UHGV virus genome: UHGV-0071542 | Source: a virus | DNA length: 40,492 nt | Strand: one strand, 5' to 3' | Shown here: positions 1-40,208 of the stretch, piece after piece | Layout of the letters: each line of letters starts with the position of its first letter | Numbering within the stretch: the stretch's first letter is position 1 | Made by a program: the position numbers and the translations under genes | The notes under the pieces: generated by a model | The model's input: only the letters and a program-made list of their open reading frames with translations | Told to the model about the DNA's origin: nothing | Databases searched by the model: none

Positions 1-22
1 GTAATGTGTATAACAAGGAATA

Positions 23-541
23 GTGATGAAATTTAAAAAATGTCTTCTGCCTGTGGCAATGTTAGCGTCATTCACTCTGGCAGGATGCCAGTCAAATGCT
101 GACGATCATGCCGCCGATGTTTATCAAACCGATCAACTGAATACCAAACAAGAAACTAAAACCGTTAATATTATTTCCATTCTTCCCGCAAAAGTTGCCG
201 TAGACAACTCCCAAAATAAACGGAACGCACAAGCCTTCGGCGCGCTTATTGGCGCAGTCGCTGGCGGTGTTATCGGCCACAACGTCGGTTCTGGCAGCAA
301 TTCCGGAACGACGGCAGGGGCAGTTGGCGGCGGAGCTGTAGGCGCGGCAGTGGGTTCTATGGTGAATGATAAAACCTTAGTGGAAGGTGTTTCTTTAACA
401 TATAAGGAAGGCACCAAAGTGTATACCTCTACCCAGGTGGGTAAAGAGTGCCAGTTTACGACAGGTTTAGCCGTTGTTATTACCACAACGTATAACGAAA
501 CGCGTATTCAGCCAAATACTAAATGTCCTGAAAAGAGCTAA
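23..541 (+). CDS. yfgH: Host outer-membrane lipoprotein with glycine-zipper domain (172 aa)
   Basis: Lipobox LAGC after signal peptide; Gly/Ala-rich glycine-zipper stretch; length and position next to guaA match E. coli yfgH from memory. Confidence 0.6.
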   Translation: MMKFKKCLLPVAMLASFTLAGCQSNADDHAADVYQTDQLNTKQETKTVNIISILPAKVAVDNSQNKRNAQAFGALIGAVAGGVIGHNVGSGSNSGTTAGAVGGGAVGAAVGSMVNDKTLVEGVSLTYKEGTKVYTSTQVGKECQFTTGLAVVITTTYNETRIQPNTKCPEKS

Positions 542-556
542 TAATCAGGAGGAGTC

Positions 557-1096
557 ATGAAGAAAGTTTTTCTTTGCGCCATCTTAGCCTCCTTAAGCTA
601 TCCGGCTATCGCCTCATCATTGCAGGATCAACTCTCTGCTGTCGCAGAAGCGGAACAGCAAGGTAAAAATGAAGAGCAAAGGCAGCATGACGAATGGGTC
701 GCGGAGCGCAACAGGGAAATCCAGCAAGAGAAGCAACGTCGCGCAAATGCCCAGGCCGCCGCTAACAAAAGAGCGGCAACGGCAGCGGCAAATAAGAAAG
801 CTCGTCAGGATAAACTGGACGCCGAAGCCACTGCGGACAAAAAACGCGATCAAAGTTATGAAGATGAGCTACGCAGCTTAGAGATTCAGAAACAAAAACT
901 GGCGCTGGCGAAAGAAGAAGCCCGCGTTAAGCGCGAAAACGAATTTATCGATCAGGAACTGAAGCACAAAGCTGCGCAAACCGATGTGGTGCAATCTGAA
1001 GCTGACGCCAACAGAAATATGACTGAAGGCGGTCGCGATCTGATGAAAAGCGTGGGCAAAGCAGAAGAGAACAAATCGGAAAGCTGGTTTAATTAA
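557..1096 (+). CDS. yfgI: Host secreted/periplasmic charged protein (179 aa)
   Basis: N-terminal signal peptide (AIASS), Lys/Glu/Ala-rich; RBS AGGAGG upstream; followed by terminator hairpin; length matches yfgI from memory. Confidence 0.55.
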   Translation: MKKVFLCAILASLSYPAIASSLQDQLSAVAEAEQQGKNEEQRQHDEWVAERNREIQQEKQRRANAQAAANKRAATAAANKKARQDKLDAEATADKKRDQSYEDELRSLEIQKQKLALAKEEARVKRENEFIDQELKHKAAQTDVVQSEADANRNMTEGGRDLMKSVGKAEENKSESWFN

Positions 1097-1140
1097 TCGA
1101 TGTTAGTAACTTCAAGCCTATGATTCTTGAAGATAAAAAA

Positions 1141-1165
1141 CCCTCTGTAGTAACAGAGGGTTTTG
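1141..1165. terminator. Bidirectional rho-independent terminator between host gene and original guaA 3' end
   Basis: Hairpin CCCTCTGT-AGTA-ACAGAGGG followed by TTTT; a diverged copy sits at 40270-40293 inside the prophage. Confidence 0.6.
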
Positions 1166-1188
1166 TTCATTCATAGTGCAGGGATCAA

Positions 1189-3395: not shown

Positions 3396-5411
3396 TTACG
3401 CACTTCGTAATAAATGTTTAGACATAGCAGCAATACAGAAACAAGATAAGTCAGCGTAATTTACACCATACATATCCGATTCTTTATCATAAGTAACCAG
3501 AGAATAGTCTGTAGGGTTAAGATTATATTTCTCCATAATCAGCATTACTTCTTGAGCCATACATCCGAAGTGATACTTATCAGATTCTGCATCTGTCCAT
3601 TTAAACTTTATCATGCTAATGGCTAATTCTAGCCCTGCACTATACTCTGCCGTAGATATCTCATACACATCTTTACATCTACCGTCAGATGTTTGTATTA
3701 CACCATTAGTTGCAAAGACAGTTTGCCATCTACGACTAGATTGACCACAAGTTCTTTGATTATCTATCTGGGGGGCAACACTACCATCTATACGCAAATA
3801 GTTATCTTCCGCTTGTGCGCCTCCCATAACACCTTCTAAAAAAGGCAATCCTTTGTGATTATTTACAATGAATTTATTGGAGGTATCTTCTGATATTCCG
3901 GTGCCAGCATCTGGACCTATAAAAATATTACCATTTCCAGTTGGTAATTTTCTTCCTGCTCTTGCTCCTATCATAACATTCAGGTCACCTGAGGATAGGG
4001 AATTGAGAGCATCAACACCAATTGCTGTATTAAAATTACCTGTGAGAGTCCCAGTGTATGGGTTCTCAGTTGATGATACTCCTCGCAATGCTCCATTACC
4101 TATAGCTGTGTTATGATCACCTTGCTTTAACTCCCTACCAGCTGCATTACCAATAAGGGTATTTCCATTACATTTATCATACCCAAGACGTACACCTTGA
4201 GGGTCTGTGTAGATGCCAGTACGCATTCCTGCAGAGCGTCCTATTGCAACATTAGCTTCTCCAGAATGGAGTTGCTGCAAAGCTGACATACCAACTGCAA
4301 CATTGAACCTACCATCCTTACACTCGTTTAGCGCATCCCTGCCAATACCAATCATGTTATTTCCAGTGGTGGCTTTCTTCAAAGCATTAATACCTATACT
4401 GATAATCTCTGTTCCAGAAAATGGCGACTTATCTGTAAGATCATCTTCTAGAGTATCTCCTGACAAACCACCCACACCAACCACGATTGTGTTAGTGCCG
4501 CTAGTTATGTTGCGACCAGAACTTGGTCCAAGCAAAACCAATTGATTACCTTTACCAGAGTCAGTGTAATTTTTTGCGGCATCATAACCTAAAATAAGGT
4601 TGCTATGAGACTGAGCTACATTGGTAAACGGAATTCGTTCCGCTCCTGTCTCTTTAATTATTTTTCCTGGGCCATAAAATCTTCCATTAATATCTTCCGG
4701 CAATAAATACGTGCCATCAGGAACATAAACACCTTGTGGCGAAGCAGATGCCGCGGCAATGAAAGCATCTGTATCATTTGTGACTCCATCACCTTTAGCG
4801 CCAAAGTCAAGAACACTGACAGTATCCCGCATCTTATCCTGAAACGTTCTATATACCGCGCCTGAACCATACTGAATAAACCAACCAAAACCACCAACAA
4901 CCCCGGCGATTGCAGCATCGACATAATTACGCATTGAGCGATTATTTACAGCGTCCTGCTCAAGTGATGGATCTGCAAGGTTAGAAATTCTGTTTTGCTT
5001 TGCATCGTAATATTTTGCAAGCAAAGATGGTTTCATCAATGCACGTCTGAACCACCCAAAACATTGCTGGATCAGCATCGTCAGGTAGTCAAAGGCATCT
5101 TCATGCACTTCGGGGAAAAACTTTCCCTGATTGCGAAGGTCTGTCTCCTGCACTACATCAAGCACACGATCTATCGTAATTCGCCATCCAGCAGCAAGCG
5201 GCGACGGAAGAACAACAGAACCGCCACTATAAGTGCCCGCCCCAGTTACCGTATAACCGGTATCCAGAACCAATTCTGTTACGTTCCCGTTCAGGTCAGA
5301 CACCTGAACAACCAGGTCGGATTTTTTGAAAATACGGAAGGTATACGGAAATGATGTCGTAACGCCGTTACCTGTGTATTCGTTGTGGTCAACTTCGGTT
5401 GAGACCGTCAT
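3396..5411 (-). CDS. Tail fibre/tailspike with C-terminal intramolecular chaperone (peptidase S74-like) domain
   Basis: N-terminal fibre anchor motif YTGNGVTTSFPYTF; Gly/Asn-rich beta-helix-like repeats; C-terminal chaperone-like segment; 3' two-thirds AT-rich. Confidence 0.75.
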   Translation of the reverse strand: MTVSTEVDHNEYTGNGVTTSFPYTFRIFKKSDLVVQVSDLNGNVTELVLDTGYTVTGAGTYSGGSVVLPSPLAAGWRITIDRVLDVVQETDLRNQGKFFPEVHEDAFDYLTMLIQQCFGWFRRALMKPSLLAKYYDAKQNRISNLADPSLEQDAVNNRSMRNYVDAAIAGVVGGFGWFIQYGSGAVYRTFQDKMRDTVSVLDFGAKGDGVTNDTDAFIAAASASPQGVYVPDGTYLLPEDINGRFYGPGKIIKETGAERIPFTNVAQSHSNLILGYDAAKNYTDSGKGNQLVLLGPSSGRNITSGTNTIVVGVGGLSGDTLEDDLTDKSPFSGTEIISIGINALKKATTGNNMIGIGRDALNECKDGRFNVAVGMSALQQLHSGEANVAIGRSAGMRTGIYTDPQGVRLGYDKCNGNTLIGNAAGRELKQGDHNTAIGNGALRGVSSTENPYTGTLTGNFNTAIGVDALNSLSSGDLNVMIGARAGRKLPTGNGNIFIGPDAGTGISEDTSNKFIVNNHKGLPFLEGVMGGAQAEDNYLRIDGSVAPQIDNQRTCGQSSRRWQTVFATNGVIQTSDGRCKDVYEISTAEYSAGLELAISMIKFKWTDAESDKYHFGCMAQEVMLIMEKYNLNPTDYSLVTYDKESDMYGVNYADLSCFCIAAMSKHLLRSA

Positions 5412-5515
5412 GTTAAATCTCCAGATAGTCGCAGCACCCGTTGCGCCGCATATCTGGTTATTCTATTACCTGAAAAACCATATATGGATAGAAAGGCTGT
5501 AAATACGAATAGATA

Positions 5516-5530
5516 TTACCTTTCAGGTAA
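5516..5530. promoter_or_regulatory. Operator-like palindrome TTACCTTTCAGGTAA
   Basis: Perfect 5-5-5 inverted repeat; identical 16-mer ATTACCTTTCAGGTAA at 22440-22455; a left-arm-only copy at 5466-5480. Confidence 0.5.
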
Positions 5531-5567
5531 TTTGCAAAACGTGCTGGATAGCAAACAAATTATTTGC

Positions 5568-5587
5568 TACTGTATAAATATACAGTT
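5568..5587 (+). promoter_or_regulatory. LexA (SOS) box TACTGTATAAATATACAGTT
   Basis: CTGT-N8-ACAG with AT-rich centre, 18/20 match to consensus TACTGTATATATATACAGTA; 20 bp upstream of the 5608 start. Confidence 0.65.
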
Positions 5588-5607
5588 ATTGCATGGAGAA
5601 GATTAAG

Positions 5608-5865
5608 ATGCAGCAGTATCACTATCCACTGGAAGACGGATTTACCGAAAGGATTCACACGCCGGGAGGCGTCAGGTCACTGGTGGAGGGATCGCACTTG
5701 ATGAAATTACTCCGGGATCTCGATAAGGATGGATTTAATGTCGATGGCCCACTTGCCGAACTGACTGCACTGATTAACTACGTCACCAGCTCACAGATGT
5801 CTATGCGGGATCTGCAAACACATCTCGACTATTGTGCCGAACAATTACGAAAACAAACCCGGTAA
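5608..5865 (+). CDS. Small SOS-regulated protein, candidate antirepressor
   Basis: ORF-track ORF 5593..5865; ATG at 5608 has RBS GGAGA; opposite strand to flanking late genes; complex hairpin plus T-run downstream. Confidence 0.5.
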   Translation: MQQYHYPLEDGFTERIHTPGGVRSLVEGSHLMKLLRDLDKDGFNVDGPLAELTALINYVTSSQMSMRDLQTHLDYCAEQLRKQTR

Positions 5866-5897
5866 ATTTAAAGGCCGCAAGAGCGGCCTGTGACATG

Positions 5898-6194
5898 TCA
5901 CGCTCTTTTTCTGAATGATAGCCATTCGAAAAATGATGACATTCCACCGCAGACAATAGCAAAGATGATCCCACCAAAGAAGAGAAGGCCAGCCTGCCAC
6001 CACTCCCACCGCCATACATCCACAGCGCCAACCATACCAACAATCGCTCCAACAAATGGAATATAGCTCACGATGAAAGCAATGGGGGCTGCAATTATCC
6101 AGTGCAATCCCCACCATGATTCAAGCCCAGCCATAATTGCTGCCAACTGAAAAAGACCAACGACGATATAAACAATGAATCCTATAGCTTGCAT
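5898..6194 (-). CDS. Small integral membrane protein (98 aa, about 3 TM)
   Basis: Highly hydrophobic, Trp-rich; lies between internal virion gene and tail fibre. Confidence 0.45.
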   Translation of the reverse strand: MQAIGFIVYIVVGLFQLAAIMAGLESWWGLHWIIAAPIAFIVSYIPFVGAIVGMVGAVDVWRWEWWQAGLLFFGGIIFAIVCGGMSSFFEWLSFRKRA

Positions 6195-6389: not shown

Positions 6390-8864
6390 TTATTGCGGAG
6401 TGACATCCTGAGGTCGCCACCAGTATGTCTGGTTAAACTCTTTCTTCGAACGTTGCTCCATTTTACGCAAATAGCCTGGTGAAAAATACTCCTGCATCTG
6501 GTTAAAGATCATATGATCGAGAGCCGCCTTTAAGTACCAGAGATTCGCACCTGGCATCAAACCTTTCCCCAGCTTCACCAGATCACCACCAGTCTGCTCA
6601 CTCTTCCCTTCCACAGCATTTAACGGTATGCCCTGAGCAATCTTCACTACGTCATCAACCAGACCAGCTACCGGGCCAAGCATCGACGCCAGCGCGCCGC
6701 TTCCGTACCTAGTGTGATCTGACAATAAAAAGTCACCGTAAAGGCCAAGACCACCACCTTTCAGTAGAGCACCAAGCCAAAATTTAGCAGCATCTTCTCC
6801 TGTCATCTCGCGAGGATTACGACCAGACGCAAGGTCGTTAAGTTGCTGCGACAAAGCGCCAAGAATGGTCGTACTGGCAATAAACGTCGCAATATATGCC
6901 GCACGCCCACCAGCAGACGGCATACCCATAGCGCGTGACCAGTGACGCATAACCACCGAGATAGGGAACGATTTAAACAGGAAAACACTTCTCGTTAATT
7001 CACCTTTCCATGTTCCACGCTGAATACCAGAACCGGTTATCAGTTGCTCACGTGCTCCTGGTGTAATAACAGCCATATCAACTTCTTCAGTTACGGCACC
7101 GAGCAGTTTACGCATTGCCTCAAATTTCACGCGTTCAGGCTCACCAAGATGTTTAACTGCTGAATCAGGGATACGCATAATGCTTTCCGGTGTCAGCATC
7201 GTATTATTGCCGTTCCCCCAGTCCTCCTGTTGCGCCAGCTTCCATACGCTCCAGTCTGTGTCAGTAATCCCTTTGCTTTTCAGGATACGAAAATCAGAAT
7301 CATCGAGGCTACGAAGGTCTGGTGTCCGTGACACTACTTCTCCCAGGCTTCCCATCATGGTTACGCCATAGGCGCGCTTGTGCGCATCTGACCATGCTGT
7401 AAGCCCACTGGCACGCATTACCGCCGTTGCAGCCCAACGAGATACAGACGGCCCCATATTATCCATCGCCCAGCGGTTAACGCTGCCAAGTAGAGATTCC
7501 ATCGCCAGACCAGCGCGGCGCGCCCGCGCAAGTTCTGTACGGTTCGTTGGGTCCATAGCTTCAAGCTGGTTGCGGAATAACTGGTTCATTGGAAGGTTGG
7601 TAACCTTCGCAGACAGATACATGGTTCCAAGATCAGAGAACGATGACAGCAACGCGGATCCGAGTCTGCTGGCAACCAGCCAGTTGCGGATATTGTCAGA
7701 CCATCGCGCGATGTGCGGATTCGCTACAGGCTGTGTCTTTCCGGAAATAAAGTTGTACAGATTCTCTGTGTTGTTCGCCAGCCGCTCGACTTTACCGGTT
7801 TTACTCGGGTTAGCTGTTGCCGTTTCTGCCTTCACCTGATCAAGAAGAGAGCGGAAAACATGATCGGGGTTTGGGCCATATGTTTCCACCAGTGCAATAT
7901 CTTTACTGATACCTTCAAGGTGACCGACCATGATTTCCCATAGAGAGCGATCGCCATAAAGTTGCTGATATTGCAGATAGGAATCTGCATCTTTGAAATG
8001 TATCTGTCGTGATGCATTACCACGGTTAGCACGTGCGCCGGAAATTCGCATTCCGGTATCAGTAAGCTTATTCAGCCCACCAGTAGCGATCGTGTTATAA
8101 GCCTCTCCAAGAAATGCAGACAACTCGGCATCGTTCATCAGTTGTCCATCGGCTCGGGTATAATATTTGCGATCCAGCTTACCTATAACATCGCTAACCC
8201 ATTTATCTTTTGATACCGCCCCAACCTTTTCCATAGAATGATGTTGAGGGATCCCCCAGTTTTCGAGATAGCCAATGTCCCCACCAGCATCATTAAACCG
8301 GCGGCGCAGCAGCTCTGTAACTTCTCTCCACGCCTTAGCACCTTTTCTTGCTTTAGCATTGCCAGTATTTTGCCCCCGCATTTCATATACCAGGTCACGT
8401 ACGCCCGCTTCATCTTCAAACAGACCAAAAAAGCGAGGATCAACTGCTTCGAATGCCTCCTGCAATTGACTCAATGCATAATCACGGGTGGCTTTTGTTC
8501 TGGATTCAACAGAGAGGAAATTCGATTTACCGTCTGCATTAAAAGCAATAGTACGGTTAAGAGCGCCAAGTTTCCCATCAGCCCCTTGATAGCTATTGAT
8601 AAATTTATCCAATCTCTGACGTGCGGCTATAGTGAGGGCCACACGACGTTTCTTTAATGCCGCTTCTCGCTGTAATTCTTCAGATGCCAATTGTGCTGCA
8701 CGATACAACCGTTCTGATTCGGAAAGTTGTCGCCACGACATCGGGTCATCACGAGCAATGGAGCGCATATTTCGATAAATGCGGTCTTCAATGTTCTGTA
8801 TTTCTCGCGCCGTTAACGTGCGCTGCGCCGCCTGCTGGACCGCTTGTATACATTCCTGTCTCAT
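6390..8864 (-). CDS. Internal virion/ejection protein (824 aa)
   Basis: Large protein in the block of large genes between tail-tube and tail-fibre genes, as in T7-like and epsilon15-like virions. Confidence 0.6.
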   Translation of the reverse strand: MRQECIQAVQQAAQRTLTAREIQNIEDRIYRNMRSIARDDPMSWRQLSESERLYRAAQLASEELQREAALKKRRVALTIAARQRLDKFINSYQGADGKLGALNRTIAFNADGKSNFLSVESRTKATRDYALSQLQEAFEAVDPRFFGLFEDEAGVRDLVYEMRGQNTGNAKARKGAKAWREVTELLRRRFNDAGGDIGYLENWGIPQHHSMEKVGAVSKDKWVSDVIGKLDRKYYTRADGQLMNDAELSAFLGEAYNTIATGGLNKLTDTGMRISGARANRGNASRQIHFKDADSYLQYQQLYGDRSLWEIMVGHLEGISKDIALVETYGPNPDHVFRSLLDQVKAETATANPSKTGKVERLANNTENLYNFISGKTQPVANPHIARWSDNIRNWLVASRLGSALLSSFSDLGTMYLSAKVTNLPMNQLFRNQLEAMDPTNRTELARARRAGLAMESLLGSVNRWAMDNMGPSVSRWAATAVMRASGLTAWSDAHKRAYGVTMMGSLGEVVSRTPDLRSLDDSDFRILKSKGITDTDWSVWKLAQQEDWGNGNNTMLTPESIMRIPDSAVKHLGEPERVKFEAMRKLLGAVTEEVDMAVITPGAREQLITGSGIQRGTWKGELTRSVFLFKSFPISVVMRHWSRAMGMPSAGGRAAYIATFIASTTILGALSQQLNDLASGRNPREMTGEDAAKFWLGALLKGGGLGLYGDFLLSDHTRYGSGALASMLGPVAGLVDDVVKIAQGIPLNAVEGKSEQTGGDLVKLGKGLMPGANLWYLKAALDHMIFNQMQEYFSPGYLRKMEQRSKKEFNQTYWWRPQDVTPQ

Positions 8865-18406: not shown

Positions 18407-18457
18407 CTTCTTTCTCCATTAGTGGGTCTGTTACGACCCACAGGTTAATAACAGGCG

Positions 18458-19450
18458 TTACACCACGCGGGCTTCTGTTTCCAGAAGCGCATCAGTTTCA
18501 CGGATTGGTACACCACGGAATGAAGTCCACCACTCGCCTTCAGTCTCTTTTACGCTGATCGCCAGAGATGTTTTCTCCAGAGATTGCAGATCAAGAGCCT
18601 GGCCTACAGTGCGGTTCATGTAGAACACCGGGCGACCCATTCCACGGTTTGGAATGCGATGCAGTGCTTTAACCATCAACTTCGCAATATTTGCGGCAGA
18701 GGAAGGTTCTGAAAGATTGCTGACATCGATGTTTGCAATGCGAACAACATAACGCCAGTCACGCAGAGCAAGTCCGTTGTCCCATTTGTAATGGGTGCGA
18801 TAGCCTTCGTACTTGCCGCCATTAGCATCTTCCAGTGTCACCTGGCCTTTATCTTCCATCTGGATGCCAGCCTTCTGCCCTTTCGGGAAGATGCCATGCA
18901 CGGTGTTTTCGCCCCACACCACTAACCAGATTGAGGTGTTATCTGTACCCGTGCCACCAGCATCAATGATGTTCTGAGCATTACCCGCAGACAGGCTGGA
19001 ATAGCGGGAGGACAGTCCCATAAACTGCTGAGGGTTAACGCTGGAATCACCATAAAACAGCGTCTGCGCCATCTGCTGATTCATCGCTTCAATAAATGCG
19101 CGGTCTTCAGACAGGCGGAATTCAGCGGTATTGCCGTTCAGATCAGCCAGTGATTTATCGACTTCAGCATAGGTTTCCAGCATGCCAACGTAATCGGTTA
19201 CCTGCACTGTGGTTGATTTGCTTGGCTGTACGCCATAGTTCAGCAAACGCCAGGTAGCTGAAGGTAAACCAGAACGAATGGTGGTTCGGTGTCCGGTAGG
19301 AAGGTTCCCTTCGACAAAAGGCATATCCTGAAGGATCGGGTTAGTTTGACCGAGAAGCTCGATAATCTTATCGACTTTCCCGTTTGGATCGACGCGCTTA
19401 CCCCAGTCAGCCAGCGTTAGCGCAGTTAAGCCTTTAACAGCCATTGTCAT
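18458..19450 (-). CDS. Major capsid protein
   Basis: 330 aa, preceded by scaffold gene; typical portal-scaffold-capsid order. Confidence 0.75.
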   Translation of the reverse strand: MTMAVKGLTALTLADWGKRVDPNGKVDKIIELLGQTNPILQDMPFVEGNLPTGHRTTIRSGLPSATWRLLNYGVQPSKSTTVQVTDYVGMLETYAEVDKSLADLNGNTAEFRLSEDRAFIEAMNQQMAQTLFYGDSSVNPQQFMGLSSRYSSLSAGNAQNIIDAGGTGTDNTSIWLVVWGENTVHGIFPKGQKAGIQMEDKGQVTLEDANGGKYEGYRTHYKWDNGLALRDWRYVVRIANIDVSNLSEPSSAANIAKLMVKALHRIPNRGMGRPVFYMNRTVGQALDLQSLEKTSLAISVKETEGEWWTSFRGVPIRETDALLETEARVV

Positions 19451-22440: not shown

Positions 22441-22455
22441 TTACCTTTCAGGTAA
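22441..22455. promoter_or_regulatory. Operator-like palindrome TTACCTTTCAGGTAA next to a TTGACA -35 hexamer
   Basis: Identical to the site at 5516-5530; TTGACA at 22419-22424. Confidence 0.5.
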
Positions 22456-22777: not shown

Positions 22778-22854
22778 GTGGCATTAGCTCAGTTGGACAG
22801 AGCAACCGCCTTCTAAGCGGTTGGTCGCAGGTTCGAATCCTGCATGCCACGCCA
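22778..22854 (+). tRNA. tRNA-Arg (anticodon UCU), phage-encoded
   Basis: 77 nt; 7-bp acceptor stem GTGGCAT/ATGCCAC; D-arm GCTC..GAGC; anticodon loop CTTCTAA; T-arm GCAGG-TTCGAAT-CCTGC; 3' GCCA. Confidence 0.85.
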
Positions 22855-23057: not shown

Positions 23058-23072
23058 TTACCTTAAAGGTAT
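23058..23072. promoter_or_regulatory. Operator-like palindrome TTACCTTAAAGGTAT overlapping the moron promoter
   Basis: Lies between TTGATG (23044-23049) and TATAAT (23070-23075). Confidence 0.45.
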
Positions 23073-30899: not shown

Positions 30900-30914
30900 T
30901 TACCTCTAAGGTAA
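30900..30914. promoter_or_regulatory. Operator-like palindrome TTACCTCTAAGGTAA overlapping the RBS, just downstream of TAATTA
   Basis: Minus sense: TTGATT-18nt-TTAATTACCTTAGAGGTAAATCATG, same arrangement as at 34039-34081. Confidence 0.5.
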
Positions 30915-30961: not shown

Positions 30962-30976
30962 TTACCCAACAGGTAA
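30962..30976. promoter_or_regulatory. Operator-like palindrome TTACCCAACAGGTAA inside a promoter spacer
   Basis: Minus sense: TTGATA-ATTACCTGTTGGGTAA-TAAAAT (16-nt spacer). Confidence 0.5.
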
Positions 30977-32906: not shown

Positions 32907-32921
32907 ATTACCTTTGAGGTA
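32907..32921. promoter_or_regulatory. Operator-like site TTACCTTTGAGGTAC (one arm imperfect)
   Basis: Between a hairpin after the Cro-like gene (about 32931-32960) and the next gene. Confidence 0.4.
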
Positions 32922-32977
32922 CGAATAGATATGAAAAGACCGCCGGATGGCGGTCTACAGAGGGTTGTGGCTGGATA

Positions 32978-33208
32978 TCATGAGTAGAAGAAGTATGCCA
33001 GTTCTGCTTTTGAGCGCAGCCATTGTCTTGATTTACAGGCTTTAAAAAGCCCATCCATCAATACCTTACCTGGCATTTTGCGCTTACCTGTTAAGTGAGT
33101 CTGGATATAGTGACTCGTCGTTCCGGCTTCCTGTGCGAAGGCTTCACGCTCATCCGGAGTAAGTGCAAGCCAGTGCTTTTTGAAATCGAAATGTCCGTTA
33201 TCGCTCAT
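32978..33208 (-). CDS. Cro-like HTH regulator (76 aa)
   Basis: Small HTH protein transcribed divergently from the repressor gene toward replication genes. Confidence 0.55.
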   Translation of the reverse strand: MSDNGHFDFKKHWLALTPDEREAFAQEAGTTSHYIQTHLTGKRKMPGKVLMDGLFKACKSRQWLRSKAELAYFFYS

Positions 33209-33244: not shown

Positions 33245-33307
33245 TCACCTATAAGGTAACAAAAATCAAGGATAGTTACCCATGAGGTGCATTTACCTGT
33301 TGGGTAA
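33245..33307. promoter_or_regulatory. Divergent promoter/operator region with three operator-like sites
   Basis: TCACCTATAAGGTAA (33245-33259), TTACCCATGAGGTGC (33276-33290), TTACCTGTTGGGTAA (33293-33307); minus-sense -35 TTGTTA and -10 TATTAT overlap the first site. Confidence 0.55.
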
Positions 33308-33362: not shown

Positions 33363-33947
33363 ATGAAAAGTATCCAGGACGTCCGCAGGCAAAATCTCAA
33401 CGACTTGATCGACCGTGAATTCAATGGTGTTCAGACGCGGATGGCCGAAAAACTTGGAACTCAGGCAAATCTGGTAAACCGCTGGGCTCTTGGTAAGAAG
33501 GTTATCGGCGATCAGGTTGCGCGAAAAATTGAAGCTGCCGCCAATAAACCCCGTAACTGGCTTGATATCGATCGCTCGCTTTCTCAGGAAGGTTTTCAGC
33601 CTGTCGGCCCAAGCGACATTGGCCAGCTGGCGGCTCACAACCTGGAACGCTGGATGAGCGAAAGCCGCGACCTTTCAACACAGGGAAAACTTCACCGCGC
33701 ATCCGGCGTAGCCCAGGTGACAATCAGCCGCCTGTTAAACAATGAGGTCAGCGTTTCCATTTCCACCCTGGAGAATGTTGCATCTGCATTCGGGCGTCAC
33801 GGATATGAACTACTGATTCACCCGCACGACCCTGCAACTATCAACTATGACCGCTCGCGCTACGCATTGTTACCTGAAACAGAGAAAGCAAAGATCGAAA
33901 GTTACATTGAATTTGTCATCAACCAGAACGAAAAAAGCAAACAATAA
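33363..33947 (+). CDS. Prophage repressor candidate: tandem HTH domains, no peptidase S24 domain
   Basis: Two HTH-like segments (residues about 10-70 and 95-160); cI-like position; no autocleavage motif seen. Confidence 0.5.
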   Translation: MKSIQDVRRQNLNDLIDREFNGVQTRMAEKLGTQANLVNRWALGKKVIGDQVARKIEAAANKPRNWLDIDRSLSQEGFQPVGPSDIGQLAAHNLERWMSESRDLSTQGKLHRASGVAQVTISRLLNNEVSVSISTLENVASAFGRHGYELLIHPHDPATINYDRSRYALLPETEKAKIESYIEFVINQNEKSKQ

Positions 33948-34004: not shown

Positions 34005-34081
34005 TTACCTTACGGGTAATTTTTTTAACTCATATCTATTGACACCAAACCAAATAAGCATAATTATTACCTCAACGGTAA
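34005..34081 (+). promoter_or_regulatory. Early-left promoter flanked by two operator-like sites
   Basis: TTACCTTACGGGTAA (34005-34019); -35 TTGACA (34039-34044); -10-like TAATTA (34061-34066); TTACCTCAACGGTAA (34067-34081). Confidence 0.6.
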
Positions 34082-34258: not shown

Positions 34259-35293
34259 ATGAGTGAATTATCAATCATCGAAATCACACCAGACATGGCA
34301 CCAAGAATTTACGTTGAAAAAGGGCTGGAAAAGTTTCTCGAGCAGATCCGTGAAGGTGTTAATGAAGTGCCTGACATTAGCACAGACAAAGGCAGAAAGC
34401 GCATTGCATCTCTGGCTGCGAAGGTTTCAAGAAGTAAAACAGCGGTAGAAAAACCAGGACGTGATTATCTGAAACGCCTGAAAGAACAGCCGAAAGTAGT
34501 TGAAGCAGAGTTACGACGCTTCGTAACCGAATGCGATCGGCTTCGTGATGAAGTACGCCGCCCACTCACCGAGTGGGAAAATGCTGAGAAATTACGCACT
34601 GAAGCACTGCAACAACGCCTGACAAATTTGCGAGCACTAGCTGACGTGATCGATCTCTCCGGAAACTACTTGCCATCATCTGATATTCAGGAACGAATTC
34701 AAGAGGCTAAATCAGTAGCACTTGATGAAAGTTGGCAGGAGTACGCAGCAGAAGCTGGAGTAGCCAAGGATTCAACCATCCAGAAACTGGAAGAATCACT
34801 CGCAGTAGCTCAAAAACGCGAGCATGAAGCCGCTGAGCTGGAGCGACTTCGCAAAGAAGCGGAGGAAAAAGCGCGCATTGAGCGAGAAGAGAATATCCGA
34901 CGGGAAGCTGCTGAACAGGCCAGGCTCGAAGCTGAACAAAAAGCGAAAGCTGAAATTGAGGCTGCGGCACGCCTGGCGGCGGAAGAAAAAGCACGTGCTG
35001 AAGTAGCAGAACGTCAGCGAATTGAAGCAGAGCAGCGTGCACGACGCGAAAAAGAAGAAGCCGTTGCCGAGGAACGCCGACGCCAAGAGGCGGCAGAAAA
35101 AGCCCGCCTTGACGAACAGAAGCGTATCGCCGACGAAGAAGCGCGCCGAGCTGCAGATAAAGAGCATCGCCGTACCGTTAACCGCAGAGTAATCGCAGAT
35201 CTGATAGCCCAAGGCATTCACGAAGAATTCGCGCAGAAAGCAATGTTGGCTATCGCTGGCGGCAAAGTGCAGGACGCGTATATCAAATATTGA
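34259..35293 (+). CDS. Highly charged coiled-coil protein with EAR/EAA-rich repeats (344 aa)
   Basis: Long runs of Glu/Ala/Arg/Lys heptad-like repeats. Confidence 0.5.
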   Translation: MSELSIIEITPDMAPRIYVEKGLEKFLEQIREGVNEVPDISTDKGRKRIASLAAKVSRSKTAVEKPGRDYLKRLKEQPKVVEAELRRFVTECDRLRDEVRRPLTEWENAEKLRTEALQQRLTNLRALADVIDLSGNYLPSSDIQERIQEAKSVALDESWQEYAAEAGVAKDSTIQKLEESLAVAQKREHEAAELERLRKEAEEKARIEREENIRREAAEQARLEAEQKAKAEIEAAARLAAEEKARAEVAERQRIEAEQRARREKEEAVAEERRRQEAAEKARLDEQKRIADEEARRAADKEHRRTVNRRVIADLIAQGIHEEFAQKAMLAIAGGKVQDAYIKY

Positions 35294-40193: not shown

Positions 40194-40208
40194 ATACCTT
40201 TAAGGTAA
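40194..40208. promoter_or_regulatory. Operator-like site ATACCTTTAAGGTAA upstream of integrase
   Basis: About 40 bp upstream of int start on the sense strand. Confidence 0.4.

What the first reader, a model, noticed from the sequence alone, without database searches (positions are those of the whole stretch)
5560..5865. Near-consensus LexA box in front of a small late-region gene: candidate SOS-controlled antirepressor
TACTGTATAAATATACAGTT (5568-5587) is a textbook CTGT-N8-ACAG SOS box, 20 bp upstream of an 86-aa ORF on the strand opposite the surrounding late genes. The repressor candidate (33363..33947) has two HTH domains but no peptidase S24 domain, so RecA-stimulated autocleavage is unlikely. 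A LexA-controlled antirepressor would then be the induction trigger, as in Gifsy-type and 186/Fels-2-type phages. The gene is far from the immunity region and has its own terminator.
Basis: partly seen in the sequence, partly recalled or inferred. Interest (0 to 1): 0.68.

Follow-up and report, generated by a model that had tools for sequence, protein, structure and literature searches.

The report
Known LexA-controlled phage antirepressor (Ant)
The SOS box and small gene are real, but they are the E. coli phiV10-type copy of an induction switch already worked out in Salmonella phage SPC32H: LexA holds down a small antirepressor that disables a non-cleavable repressor, so the finding is correct but ordinary.

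Summary
TACTGTATAAATATACAGTT (5568-5587) is the only strong LexA box in the window. It has 2 mismatches to the 20-mer consensus, none of 100 shuffles produced a match, and it scores 28.0 bits on a PWM against 9.9 for the next site. It lies 20 nt upstream of a small plus-strand gene set among minus-strand late genes.

The gene (ATG 5608 to stop 5865, 85 aa) is 85-87% identical to Ant of Salmonella phage SPC32H (PDB 5D50 chain E, E=1.6e-46). The 194-aa protein at 33363-33947 is a full-length homologue of SPC32H Rep (5D50 chain A, E=3.5e-42) and has no S24 domain. The window is a phiV10-like Uetakevirus prophage, and ant sits between the tailspike gene and a virion gene exactly as in SPC32H, epsilon15 and phiV10.

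An intact box lies 19-22 bp upstream of ant in 87 of 90 loci and across at least 8 genera. The natural mutant SPC32N carries a C-to-A change in the ACAG arm.

Gifsy and 186 Tum are functional analogues, not relatives. Corrections: the protein is 85 aa, and the terminator hairpin is shared with the convergent gene. Novelty: already known. Interest is low.

The parts
5568..5587 (.). LexA (SOS) box TACTGTATAAATATACAGTT
   Evidence: It has 2 mismatches to the consensus, is unique in the window, and 0 of 100 shuffles matched. PWM score is 28.0 bits against 9.9 for the next site. An intact box is conserved 19-22 bp upstream of ant in 87 of 90 loci and in 10 of 12 taxa from at least 8 genera. The SPC32N mutant changes the C of the ACAG arm.
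5545..5573 (+). Candidate ant promoter (inferred): -35 TGGATA 5545-5550, 17-bp spacer, -10 TACTGT 5568-5573. The -10 is the left arm of the LexA box, so the predicted start of transcription (about 5580) lies inside the box.
   Evidence: Both hexamers fall in blocks that are invariant in the 5-phage alignment and nearly invariant across 12 taxa, and the spacer length is constant. The match is only 8 of 12, so the 9-of-12 promoter scan did not list it. This is an inference, not a mapped start site.
5595..5598 (+). Shine-Dalgarno GGAG, 9 nt before ATG 5608
   Evidence: Read directly from the sequence. The GCATGGAGAAG block is conserved in most relatives.
5608..5865 (+). ant: 85-aa antirepressor, orthologue of SPC32H Ant
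   Evidence: PDB 5D50_E, E=1.6e-46. Identity is 99% to phiV10 p24, 85% to SPC32H Ant and 81% to epsilon15 gp19. It matches PHROG 450 at E=7e-48. Start-codon choice rests.
5872..5889 (.). GC-rich hairpin AGGCCGC-AAGA-GCGGCCT between the convergent genes ant (+) and 5898-6194 (-); probable bidirectional terminator
   Evidence: The terminator scan lists it on the minus strand. Folds of both strands keep the 7-bp stem. The epsilon15 record annotates the equivalent stem-loop as a rho-independent terminator.
5516..5530 (.). Operator-like palindrome TTACCTTTCAGGTAA (putative Rep site) between the tailspike gene and ant
   Evidence: The motif TTACCT-N3-AGGTAA has 16 matches at 2 or fewer mismatches against 0.93 expected. 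It is conserved in all 12 taxa. The epsilon15 record annotates the equivalent site as 'repressor' protein_bind. On the minus strand it fills the 16-bp spacer of TTGCAA(5537-5532)...TATCTA(5515-5510), which would make it part of a tailspike-directed promoter; that reading is an inference.
33363..33947 (+). rep: 194-aa repressor with no S24 domine, homologue of SPC32H Rep and the presumed target of Ant
   Evidence: PDB 5D50_A, E=3.5e-42 over residues 1-190. Pfam finds HTH_3 and no S24. Identity to SPC32H Rep is 44% overall, 54% in the N-terminal domain and 40% in the C-terminal domain. Invariant residues include the NLVNRW helix and a C-terminal YE..I / I.YD / LP..EK.KI cluster.
33245..33307 (.). 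Two operator-like palindromes (33245-33259 and 33293-33307) in the rep/cro-like divergent intergenic region
   Evidence: The cro-like gene 32978-33208(-) matches PHROG 35 'transcriptional repressor'.
34005..34081 (.). Two operator-like palindromes (34005-34019 and 34067-34081) bracketing a TTGACA-16-TAATTA promoter for the operon that starts at 34259
   Evidence: The equivalent sites beside the epsilon15 repressor gene are annotated as 'repressor'.

Best explanation
This is the SOS-sensing arm of the lysis-lysogeny switch of a phiV10-like (Uetakevirus) prophage of E. coli.

In the lysogen, host LexA binds the near-consensus box at 5568-5587. The box overlaps the -10 and start region of the ant promoter, so the monocistronic ant gene (5608-5865) stays silent. 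Meanwhile Rep (33363-33947) occupies TTACCT-N3-AGGTAA operators around the immunity region and in front of other transcription units. Rep is a two-domain HTH repressor with no S24 protease domain.

DNA damage activates RecA, LexA cleaves itself, and ant is transcribed. The 85-aa Ant protein then binds Rep and releases it from its operators, which starts lytic development. In SPC32H, an Ant tetramer binds the C-terminal domains of two Rep dimers and breaks up the DNA-binding Rep tetramer. Because Rep is sequestered rather than cleaved, the switch is in principle reversible.

Shown here: the box, its uniqueness and its conservation; orthology of both proteins to the crystallised pair; synteny; absence of S24 in Rep; co-occurrence of ant and rep. 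Inferred from the SPC32H work and not tested in this phage: LexA binding, SOS induction, Ant-Rep complex formation and the exact promoter.
For: - Box: exact sequence; unique and never matched in shuffles; PWM 28.0 bits against 9.9 for the next site.
- Ant matches 5D50_E at E=1.6e-46 and Rep matches 5D50_A at E=3.5e-42 over its full length.
- The ant gene sits between the tailspike gene and a virion gene, on the opposite strand, as in the SPC32H record (gene 'ant', product 'anti-repressor protein'), epsilon15 and phiV10.
- An intact box lies 19-22 bp upstream of ant in 87 of 90 loci. It is the single strong LexA site in the SPC32H, epsilon15 and Tyrion genomes.
- SPC32N differs from SPC32H in this 3.5-kb region at only two bases, and one is the C-to-A change in the ACAG arm. 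From memory, the Kim & Ryu 2013 abstract says a single LexA-box mutation makes Ant constitutive.
- Rep has no S24 domain.
- Ant and Rep occur in the same Uetakevirus phage records, 35 and 36 respectively.
- Literature held here: SOS/LexA-dependent Ant synthesis inactivating the repressor by protein-protein contact, citing Kim & Ryu 2013 (PMC7380047). An Ant tetramer binds two Rep dimers and breaks the Rep tetramer (PMC9638917). The Rep C-terminal 'CAD' domain mediates both tetramerisation and Ant binding (PMC9986798).
Against: - No experiment exists for this phage or for phiV10.
- Rep is only 43-44% identical to the SPC32H protein (40% in the C-terminal domain that binds Ant) while Ant is 85-87% identical. 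Conservation of the interface is therefore assumed, not shown.
- The candidate promoter matches the sigma-70 consensus at only 8 of 12 positions and was not picked up by the scan.
- The primary papers (J Virol 2013, PNAS 2016) were not held in the library. Their details are cited from secondary papers and from memory.
Confidence: 0.9

Rival explanations
1. The Ant homologue is present and LexA-controlled, but in this phiV10-type phage it is not the necessary trigger or not the only one. The diverged Rep may be bound poorly, or may be inactivated by another route, with Ant acting mainly in trans on other Uetakevirus repressors or on another target.
For: Rep is 43-44% identical to SPC32H Rep while Ant is 85-87% identical. 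Ant identity does not track Rep identity: Tyrion has Rep at 78% and Ant at 85.5%, while SPC32H has Rep at 43% and Ant at 86.7%. Many relatives carry a second, Bro-N-fused Ant-like protein downstream, which hints at redundancy. Trans-acting antirepressors are documented in Gifsy prophages (PMC3121763).
Against: ant and rep co-occur strictly in all Uetakevirus genomes found. Residues invariant across four Rep types cluster in the C-terminal segment reported to bind Ant. Rep has no S24 domain, so no alternative SOS input is visible. This window lacks the second Ant-like gene.
Confidence: 0.07
2. The small SOS-boxed gene is a DinI-like or other SOS-modulating accessory gene. Such genes are commonly found divergent from tail-fibre genes in temperate phages, and this one would have no role in repressor inactivation.
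For: Phage dinI-like genes are small, preceded by LexA boxes and divergently oriented relative to tail-fibre genes in PhiKO2, OS31 and others (PMC7556043). This is the same superficial anatomy.
Against: Pfam gives no DinI hit, and the only weak hit (DUF724) is below threshold. The protein is 85-87% identical to a crystallised antirepressor bound to its repressor. It also matches the C-terminal part of PHROG 'anti-repressor' families.
Confidence: 0.02
3. The palindrome is a chance or non-LexA element, or it controls the divergent tailspike gene rather than ant.
For: The bare CTGT-N8-ACAG core is not significant on its own. The site is palindromic and lies in a divergent intergenic region.
Against: The full 20-mer is never matched in shuffles and outscores all training SOS boxes. 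It keeps a fixed 19-22 bp distance from the ant start across genera, while lying about 157 bp from the tailspike start codon. The SPC32N mutation lies in it.
Confidence: 0.01

Closest known systems
Salmonella phage SPC32H Ant/Rep antirepression system (Kim & Ryu 2013, J Virol 87:11775; Kim et al. 2016 PNAS; PDB 5D50 and 5D4Z)
   Same: Ant is orthologous (85-87% identity, same length). Rep is homologous over its full length, with the same two-domain layout and no S24 domain. The LexA box sits in the same place (19-22 bp upstream of ant). The gene has the same position and orientation between the tailspike gene and a virion protein gene. The operator consensus TTACCT-N3-AGGTAA is the same, and the phage genus (Uetakevirus) is the same.
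   Different: The host is E. coli and the phage is phiV10-type. Rep is only 43-44% identical. The box-to-ATG spacing is 20 nt rather than 22. The downstream membrane-protein gene is longer (98 aa against 46 aa). Nothing has been tested experimentally in this phage.
Gifsy-1/-2/-3 LexA-controlled antirepressors GfoA, GftA and GfhA (Lemire et al. 2011, PMC3121763)
   Same: The logic is the same: a non-cleaved repressor, a small antirepressor gene far from the immunity region, repression by LexA, and induction by protein-protein inactivation that is potentially reversible.
   Different: There is no detectable sequence similarity. The Gifsy antirepressor is the second gene of a dinI-ant-irsA operon located 1.3 kb downstream of the replication genes. 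Here the gene is monocistronic, has no dinI, and sits in the late region next to the tailspike gene. Gifsy repressors resemble only the N-terminal domain of lambda CI.
Coliphage 186 Tum (also Fels-2 and PSP3)
   Same: It is a LexA-repressed antirepressor that binds its repressor and prevents operator binding.
   Different: Tum is 146 aa and its second half is DinI-like. The window protein is 85 aa, has no DinI domain and gave no tblastn match to P2/186-type phages. The phage family and repressor type are different.
Bro-N / P22-type large antirepressors (PHROG 130, 1760 and others)
   Same: The 85-aa Ant aligns with the C-terminal roughly 80 residues of Bro-N-domain antirepressor-like proteins. 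These are encoded just downstream of ant in many relatives (43% identity, E=3e-16), and Ant also matches PHROG 1760 'anti-repressor' (E=6.6e-7).
   Different: The window protein lacks the Bro-N domain entirely and is a stand-alone module. P22 ant is controlled by Mnt/Arc and is not needed for SOS induction.
Phage-borne DinI-like SOS genes (PhiKO2 and others)
   Same: They are small genes with a LexA box, divergent from the tail-fibre gene.
   Different: There is no DinI homology, and the protein family and function are different.

Membership tests
SPC32H-type Ant/Rep/LexA antirepression module (Uetakevirus) | Small (about 86 aa) Ant protein homologous to SPC32H Ant | tested here: met
   PDB 5D50_E, E=1.6e-46, residues 7-89 against 3-85. 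Identity is 85-87%.
SPC32H-type Ant/Rep/LexA antirepression module (Uetakevirus) | Rep of about 195 aa with an N-terminal HTH domain plus a C-terminal HTH and tetramerisation/Ant-binding region, homologous to SPC32H Rep over its full length | tested here: met
   5D50_A, E=3.5e-42, residues 1-190 against 2-197; 5D4Z_A (Rep 92-198), E=3.6e-20. Identity is 43-44%.
SPC32H-type Ant/Rep/LexA antirepression module (Uetakevirus) | Rep lacks the S24 autocleavage domain | tested here: met
   Pfam finds only HTH families at E<=0.01. NCBIfam gives nothing above its cut-offs.
SPC32H-type Ant/Rep/LexA antirepression module (Uetakevirus) | LexA box immediately upstream of ant, overlapping its promoter | tested here: met
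   Box at 5568-5587, 20 nt before the ATG. Statistics are, and alignment in register with the SPC32H box and the SPC32N mutation is. Overlap with the promoter is inferred, not mapped.
SPC32H-type Ant/Rep/LexA antirepression module (Uetakevirus) | ant located between the tailspike gene and the virion-protein/membrane-protein genes, on the opposite strand and far from rep | tested here: met
SPC32H-type Ant/Rep/LexA antirepression module (Uetakevirus) | Conservation of the Rep surface that binds Ant (C-terminal 'CAD' region) | tested here: inconclusive
   The C-terminal domain is only 40% identical. However, residues invariant across 5 Reps cluster in the last 45 or so residues: Y148, E149, I160, Y162, D163, Y167, L170, P171, E174, K175, K177, I178, I182, F184, Q188, N189. 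The interface residues of 5D50 could not be read with these tools.
SPC32H-type Ant/Rep/LexA antirepression module (Uetakevirus) | LexA binds the box, ant is SOS-induced, and Ant binds Rep and releases it from DNA | not testable with these tools
   This needs EMSA or footprinting, RT-qPCR in lexA+ and lexA(Ind-) hosts, and pull-down or SEC.
186 Tum / Fels-2 / PSP3 antirepressors | Sequence homology to Tum, including the DinI-like C-terminal half | tested here: not met
   No DinI Pfam hit. tblastn against 50,697 phage records at E<=1 hits only Uetakevirus genomes plus 3 chance-level matches.
Gifsy-type antirepressors (GfoA/GftA) | Antirepressor encoded in a LexA-controlled dinI-ant-irsA operon, with homology to GfoA/GftA | tested here: not met
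   The gene is monocistronic between a LexA box and a hairpin, with no dinI. No non-Uetakevirus homologue was found. The operon description comes from PMC3121763. I did not confirm that Gifsy sequences are in the phage collection.
DinI family | DinI domain (Pfam PF06183) | tested here: not met
   Absent from the Pfam scan at E<=0.01.
Bro-N / KilA-N type large antirepressors | N-terminal Bro-N domain | tested here: not met
   The window's Ant has no Pfam domain. Bro-N is present only in the 231-aa paralogue found in relatives.
Lambda CI / LexA-type autocleaving repressors (for Rep) | C-terminal Peptidase_S24 domain with a Ser-Lys dyad | tested here: not met
   No S24 hit. The best PDB relatives are only the SPC32H Rep chains.

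The most novel reading that the evidence does not exclude
Ant may be a generalist module rather than a strictly cognate partner. It stays 64-87% identical across genera while Rep drops to 43-45%, and the same fold recurs as the C-terminal domain of Bro-N antirepressor-like proteins encoded next to it in relatives. One Ant could therefore cross-induce Uetakevirus prophages that carry different Reps, as happens in Gifsy crosstalk.

Separately, a conserved Rep-operator palindrome lies between the divergent ant and tailspike promoters. Rep might therefore directly gate a late structural gene, and possibly modulate ant itself, which would give a feedback or feed-forward loop not described for SPC32H as far as I could check.
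Probability: 0.2. Interest if true: 0.35.

Novelty: already known. Interest (0 to 1): 0.12.

Why it matters
As a discovery it matters little. The mechanism was published for SPC32H in 2013, crystal structures followed in 2016, and this is a close, syntenic orthologue.

The practical value is in annotation. Ant has no Pfam or NCBIfam model, PHROG 450 is labelled 'unknown function', and RefSeq calls the gene 'hypothetical protein' in the roughly 10% of complete E. coli genomes (534 of 5,426) that carry this locus. Several phiV10-like phages used or proposed for O157 typing and biocontrol carry it as well. Recognising it identifies these prophages as SOS-inducible through LexA and Ant, not through repressor cleavage.

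Tried and rejected
- The bare CTGT-N8-ACAG core is not significant as a statistic (2 found, 0.75 expected), so I used the full 20-mer and a PWM instead.
- The second core match at 18428 is a GC hairpin, not an SOS box.
- The sigma-70 scan at 9 of 12 found no ant promoter. Alternative -10 candidates inside the box (TATAAA at 5573-5578, TATACA at 5579-5584) have no conserved -35 at 16-18 bp. I kept TGGATA-17-TACTGT because both hexamers lie in conserved blocks, but it remains an inference.
- ATG 5593 was rejected as the start because it is in frame only through a 1-nt insertion peculiar to this sequence and 17 close relatives.
- The DinI, Tum and Gifsy family hypotheses were rejected on sequence.
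- The primary papers could not be opened: J Virol 2013 by DOI or PMC3807360, PNAS 2016 by DOI, and the epsilon15 genome paper PMC2698709. I relied on secondary citations and on my memory of the abstracts.
- My first pass at counting LexA boxes kept the wrong tblastn HSP for each locus. This was corrected.
- Rfam found only a tRNA in the window.
- I did not run the large protein-database searches, structure prediction or fold search, because 85% identity to a solved complex made them unnecessary.

Full report
**Observation**

The sequence TACTGTATAAATATACAGTT lies at 5568-5587, as reported. It differs from the 20-mer E. coli SOS-box consensus TACTGTATATATATACAGTA at two positions. It is the only site in the 40.5-kb window within three mismatches of that consensus, and none of 100 dinucleotide-preserving shuffles produced such a site.

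The minimal core CTGT-N8-ACAG is not significant by itself: 2 matches against 0.75 expected. The other core match, at 18428, is simply the stem of an intergenic GC hairpin.

I built a symmetric position weight matrix from 22 E. coli SOS boxes recalled from memory, so it is approximate. It gives this site 28.0 bits, higher than every training site (12.9-26.7). The next best site in the window scores 9.9 bits, and the best score over 200 shuffles was 22.7.

The box ends 20 nt before an ATG at 5608. That ATG opens a plus-strand ORF ending at 5865, surrounded by minus-strand late genes: tailspike 3396-5411, a 98-aa membrane protein 5898-6194, and an 824-aa virion protein 6390-8864.

**Corrections to the anatomy**

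The mechanical ORF begins at ATG 5593 (90 aa). That codon is in frame only because this sequence has one extra T at 5603-5604. In phiV10, SPC32H and epsilon15 the same ATG is out of frame, and the annotated start aligns with 5608. RefSeq calls the 85-aa form in an E. coli chromosome that is 100% identical over this region. A GGAG at 5595-5598 is the likely ribosome-binding site.

The 'own terminator' is a 7-bp GC hairpin (5872-5889) that starts six bases after the stop codon. It lies between ant and the convergent gene 5898-6194(-). The terminator scan lists it only on the minus strand, where TTTAAATTT follows directly. On the plus strand a second small hairpin comes before the T-run. It is best described as a shared, probably bidirectional terminator, and the epsilon15 record annotates the equivalent stem-loop as one.

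**What it is**

The ORF product matches chain E of PDB 5D50, 'Anti-repressor protein', with E=1.6e-46 over essentially its whole length. The protein encoded at 33363-33947 matches chain A of the same entry, 'Repressor', with E=3.5e-42 over residues 1-190, and also matches 5D4Z, which is Rep residues 92-198. These are the Ant and Rep proteins of Salmonella phage SPC32H.

DNA searches show that the window is a phiV10-like member of the genus Uetakevirus. It is 97% identical to phiv142-3, HEMP4, ZX5 and phiV10 over the late region. It is integrated in E. coli: one chromosome, strain FT130, is 100% identical over the ant locus.

In the SPC32H record the syntenic gene is named ant, with product 'anti-repressor protein'. 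It lies between tsp and a small membrane-protein gene, on the opposite strand, exactly as here. Ant is 99% identical to phiV10 p24, 85% to SPC32H Ant and 81% to epsilon15 gp19.

**Conservation of the box**

The five-phage alignment of the intergenic region puts the LexA box in the same register in the window, phiV10, SPC32H and epsilon15. Across 90 loci that encode Ant relatives, 87 have an intact CTGT-N8-ACAG 19-22 bp upstream of the start codon. The loci comprise 80 IMG/VR contigs, 6 genomes of other genera, reference phages and the window.

The three exceptions are:
- SPC32N;
- one viral contig whose left arm is replaced;
- a Superficieibacter prophage with an ATGT left arm. A Klebsiella phage shares that variant.

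In the complete genomes of SPC32H, epsilon15 and Enterobacter phage Tyrion, this box is the only strong LexA site.

SPC32N differs from SPC32H at only two positions in the 3.5 kb around ant. One is a C-to-A change in the ACAG arm. This agrees with my recollection of the Kim & Ryu 2013 abstract: a single LexA-box mutation makes Ant constitutive and the phage lytic.

**Mechanism**

The primary papers were not available in the library. Papers that are held state the following:
- In these Salmonella phages, SOS induction and LexA self-cleavage lead to synthesis of an antirepressor that inactivates the repressor by protein-protein contact, citing Kim & Ryu 2013 (PMC7380047).
- Rep binds DNA as a tetramer, and tetrameric Ant binds two Rep dimers and breaks the tetramer (PMC9638917).
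- The C-terminal 'CAD' domain of Rep mediates both tetramerisation and Ant binding (PMC9986798).

Rep in the window has HTH_3 at residues 106-147, a weaker HTH-like hit in the N-terminal domain, and no Peptidase_S24. RecA-stimulated self-cleavage is therefore not expected.

The model for this window has four steps. LexA sits on 5568-5587. DNA damage removes LexA. An ant mRNA of about 300 nt is made. Ant then sequesters Rep, and the early and late promoters are released.

The most plausible promoter is -35 TGGATA (5545-5550), a 17-bp spacer, and -10 TACTGT (5568-5573, the left arm of the box). Both hexamers fall in blocks that are conserved across at least 8 genera while the spacer sequence varies. 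The match to consensus is only 8 of 12 and the start site has not been mapped, so this step is inferred.

**Comparison with other systems**

A tblastn search of 50,697 phage records at E<=1 finds Ant only in 35 Uetakevirus genomes (from Escherichia, Salmonella, Klebsiella and Enterobacter) plus three chance-level hits. Essentially the same set of records carries Rep.

- Tum of phage 186 is 146 aa with a DinI-like half.
- Gifsy antirepressors lie in dinI-ant-irsA operons near the replication genes (PMC3121763).
- The window gene is monocistronic and has no DinI domain.
- The look-alike hypothesis of a phage dinI gene (small, SOS-boxed, divergent from the tail-fibre gene; PMC7556043) is excluded by the same evidence.

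**Residual uncertainty**

Rep is only 44% identical to SPC32H Rep: 54% in the N-terminal DNA-binding domain and 40% in the C-terminal domain. Ant, by contrast, is 85-87% identical.

Residues invariant across five Reps of four types include the NLVNRW helix, which fits the shared operator consensus. They also include a cluster in the last 45 or so residues, the region reported to bind Ant. This supports a conserved interaction but does not prove it. No experiment exists for phiV10-type phages as far as I could find.

**Seen along the way**

The palindrome TTACCT-N3-AGGTAA occurs 16 times at 2 or fewer mismatches against 0.93 expected. It flanks rep on both sides and precedes most transcription units. 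The epsilon15 record annotates the equivalent sites as repressor-binding sites.

One perfect copy (5516-5530) lies between the tailspike gene and ant and is conserved in all 12 taxa compared. On the minus strand it fills the spacer of a TTGCAA-16-TATCTA promoter-like element. The copy at 30962 has the same architecture, with TTGATA-16-TAAAAT. It more likely gates the tailspike gene than ant.

Many relatives encode, about 0.3 kb downstream of ant, a 231-aa Bro-N protein whose C-terminal 80 residues are 43% identical to Ant. The window lacks this gene.

Ant has no Pfam or NCBIfam model, and PHROG 450 is labelled 'unknown function'. The gene is 'hypothetical protein' in RefSeq, although 534 of 5,426 complete E. 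coli genomes carry the locus.

**Verdict**

It is already known, and interest is low (0.12). The value lies in annotation and in a few minor open questions: how specific Ant is across different Rep types, and what the Rep operator next to ant does.

Noticed in passing
window 5516-5530, 22441-22455, 23058-23072, 30900-30914, 30962-30976, 32908-32922, 33245-33259, 33293-33307, 34005-34019, 34067-34081, 40194-40208: The palindrome TTACCT-N3-AGGTAA is strongly over-represented: 16 hits at 2 or fewer mismatches against 0.93 expected. It clusters around rep and in front of most transcription units, and pairs are spaced 62 bp (twice) and 48 bp apart. SPC32H and epsilon15 have the same consensus although Rep is only 43-44% identical. 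The epsilon15 record annotates these sites as repressor sites. At 30962(-) and 34067(+) the palindrome sits inside or on a good sigma-70 core promoter.
   Followed up: partly
window 5460-5537 (minus strand): There are two candidate tailspike promoters divergent from ant. The first is TCCATA(5488-5483)-17-TAGAAT(5465-5460), which lies in a block conserved across 12 taxa and has an operator half-site TTACC next to the -10. The second is TTGCAA(5537-5532)-16-TATCTA(5515-5510), whose spacer is filled by the full operator. The late operon appears to be interrupted by ant and its terminator, so the tailspike gene may need its own Rep-gated promoter.
   Followed up: partly
L017:2074-2769 (+), with equivalents in 48 of 90 related loci; phiV10 p23/p22 (L003:2278-2957); Tyrion gp20 (L094:20417-21121): Many relatives encode a 231-aa protein downstream of ant on the same strand. 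It has an N-terminal Bro-N domain (Pfam E=2e-21) and a C-terminal domain 43% identical to Ant (E=3e-16). It matches PHROG 130 and 1760 'anti-repressor' and also PHROG 450. The stand-alone Ant therefore looks like the C-terminal module of Bro-N antirepressors. No second LexA box precedes this gene, and the window lacks it.
   Followed up: partly
window 5608-5865 against 33363-33947, compared with L091-L094: Conservation is asymmetric. Ant is 64-87% identical across Escherichia, Salmonella, Enterobacter and Klebsiella phages, while its target Rep is 43-45% identical (78% in Tyrion). Ant identity does not track Rep identity. This may mean Ant recognises a small conserved Rep surface or is selected for compatibility with several Rep types.
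   Followed up: partly
L093 (Klebsiella phage BUCT711) 382-401 and 17016-17035: In the Klebsiella lineage the box upstream of ant has a degenerate left arm (ATATGT..., PWM 18.8 bits). A much stronger LexA box (TACTGTATATTTAAACAGTA, 27.4 bits) lies upstream of a different small gene, CDS 34-363(-), near the genome end. This may be a second SOS-controlled gene, or one that replaces ant in that role.
   Followed up: no
window 5603-5604; loci: There is a 1-nt length polymorphism between the LexA box and the ant start codon: 20 nt in the window and 17 relatives, 19 nt in most E. coli relatives, and 22 nt in the Salmonella and Citrobacter types. It changes which upstream ATG is in frame, so mechanical ORF callers give 90 aa here and 126 aa in L017. 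The conserved protein is 85-86 aa in every case.
   Followed up: yes
window 22778-22854 (+): A tRNA-Arg (anticodon TCT) lies on the strand opposite the late genes. About 330 nt upstream there is a TTGACA hexamer, and a perfect operator palindrome lies at 22441-22455. SPC32H and the O157 typing phages annotate a tRNA-Arg at the same place.
   Followed up: no
window 18420-18445: The only other CTGT-N8-ACAG in the window is the stem of a hairpin, GTGGGTC-TGTTAC-GACCCAC, in the short gap just downstream of the 330-aa minus-strand ORF 18458-19450, which matches the epsilon15 major capsid protein in size and position. It is probably an RNA or terminator element and not a LexA site.
   Followed up: yes
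window 1-1188: The left end of the window is not matched by phiV10-type phage genomes; matches begin at 1189. It encodes a glycine-zipper/TraT-like protein (23-541) and a DUF5384 protein (557-1096) next to the lysis cassette. These could be accessory genes carried by the prophage or flanking host DNA.
   Followed up: no
window 5608-5865; E. coli RefSeq genomes: There is an annotation gap. Ant has no Pfam or NCBIfam model, PHROG 450 is labelled 'unknown function', and the gene is 'hypothetical protein' in RefSeq and in most phage records. Yet the locus is present in 534 of 5,426 complete E. coli genomes.
   Followed up: yes
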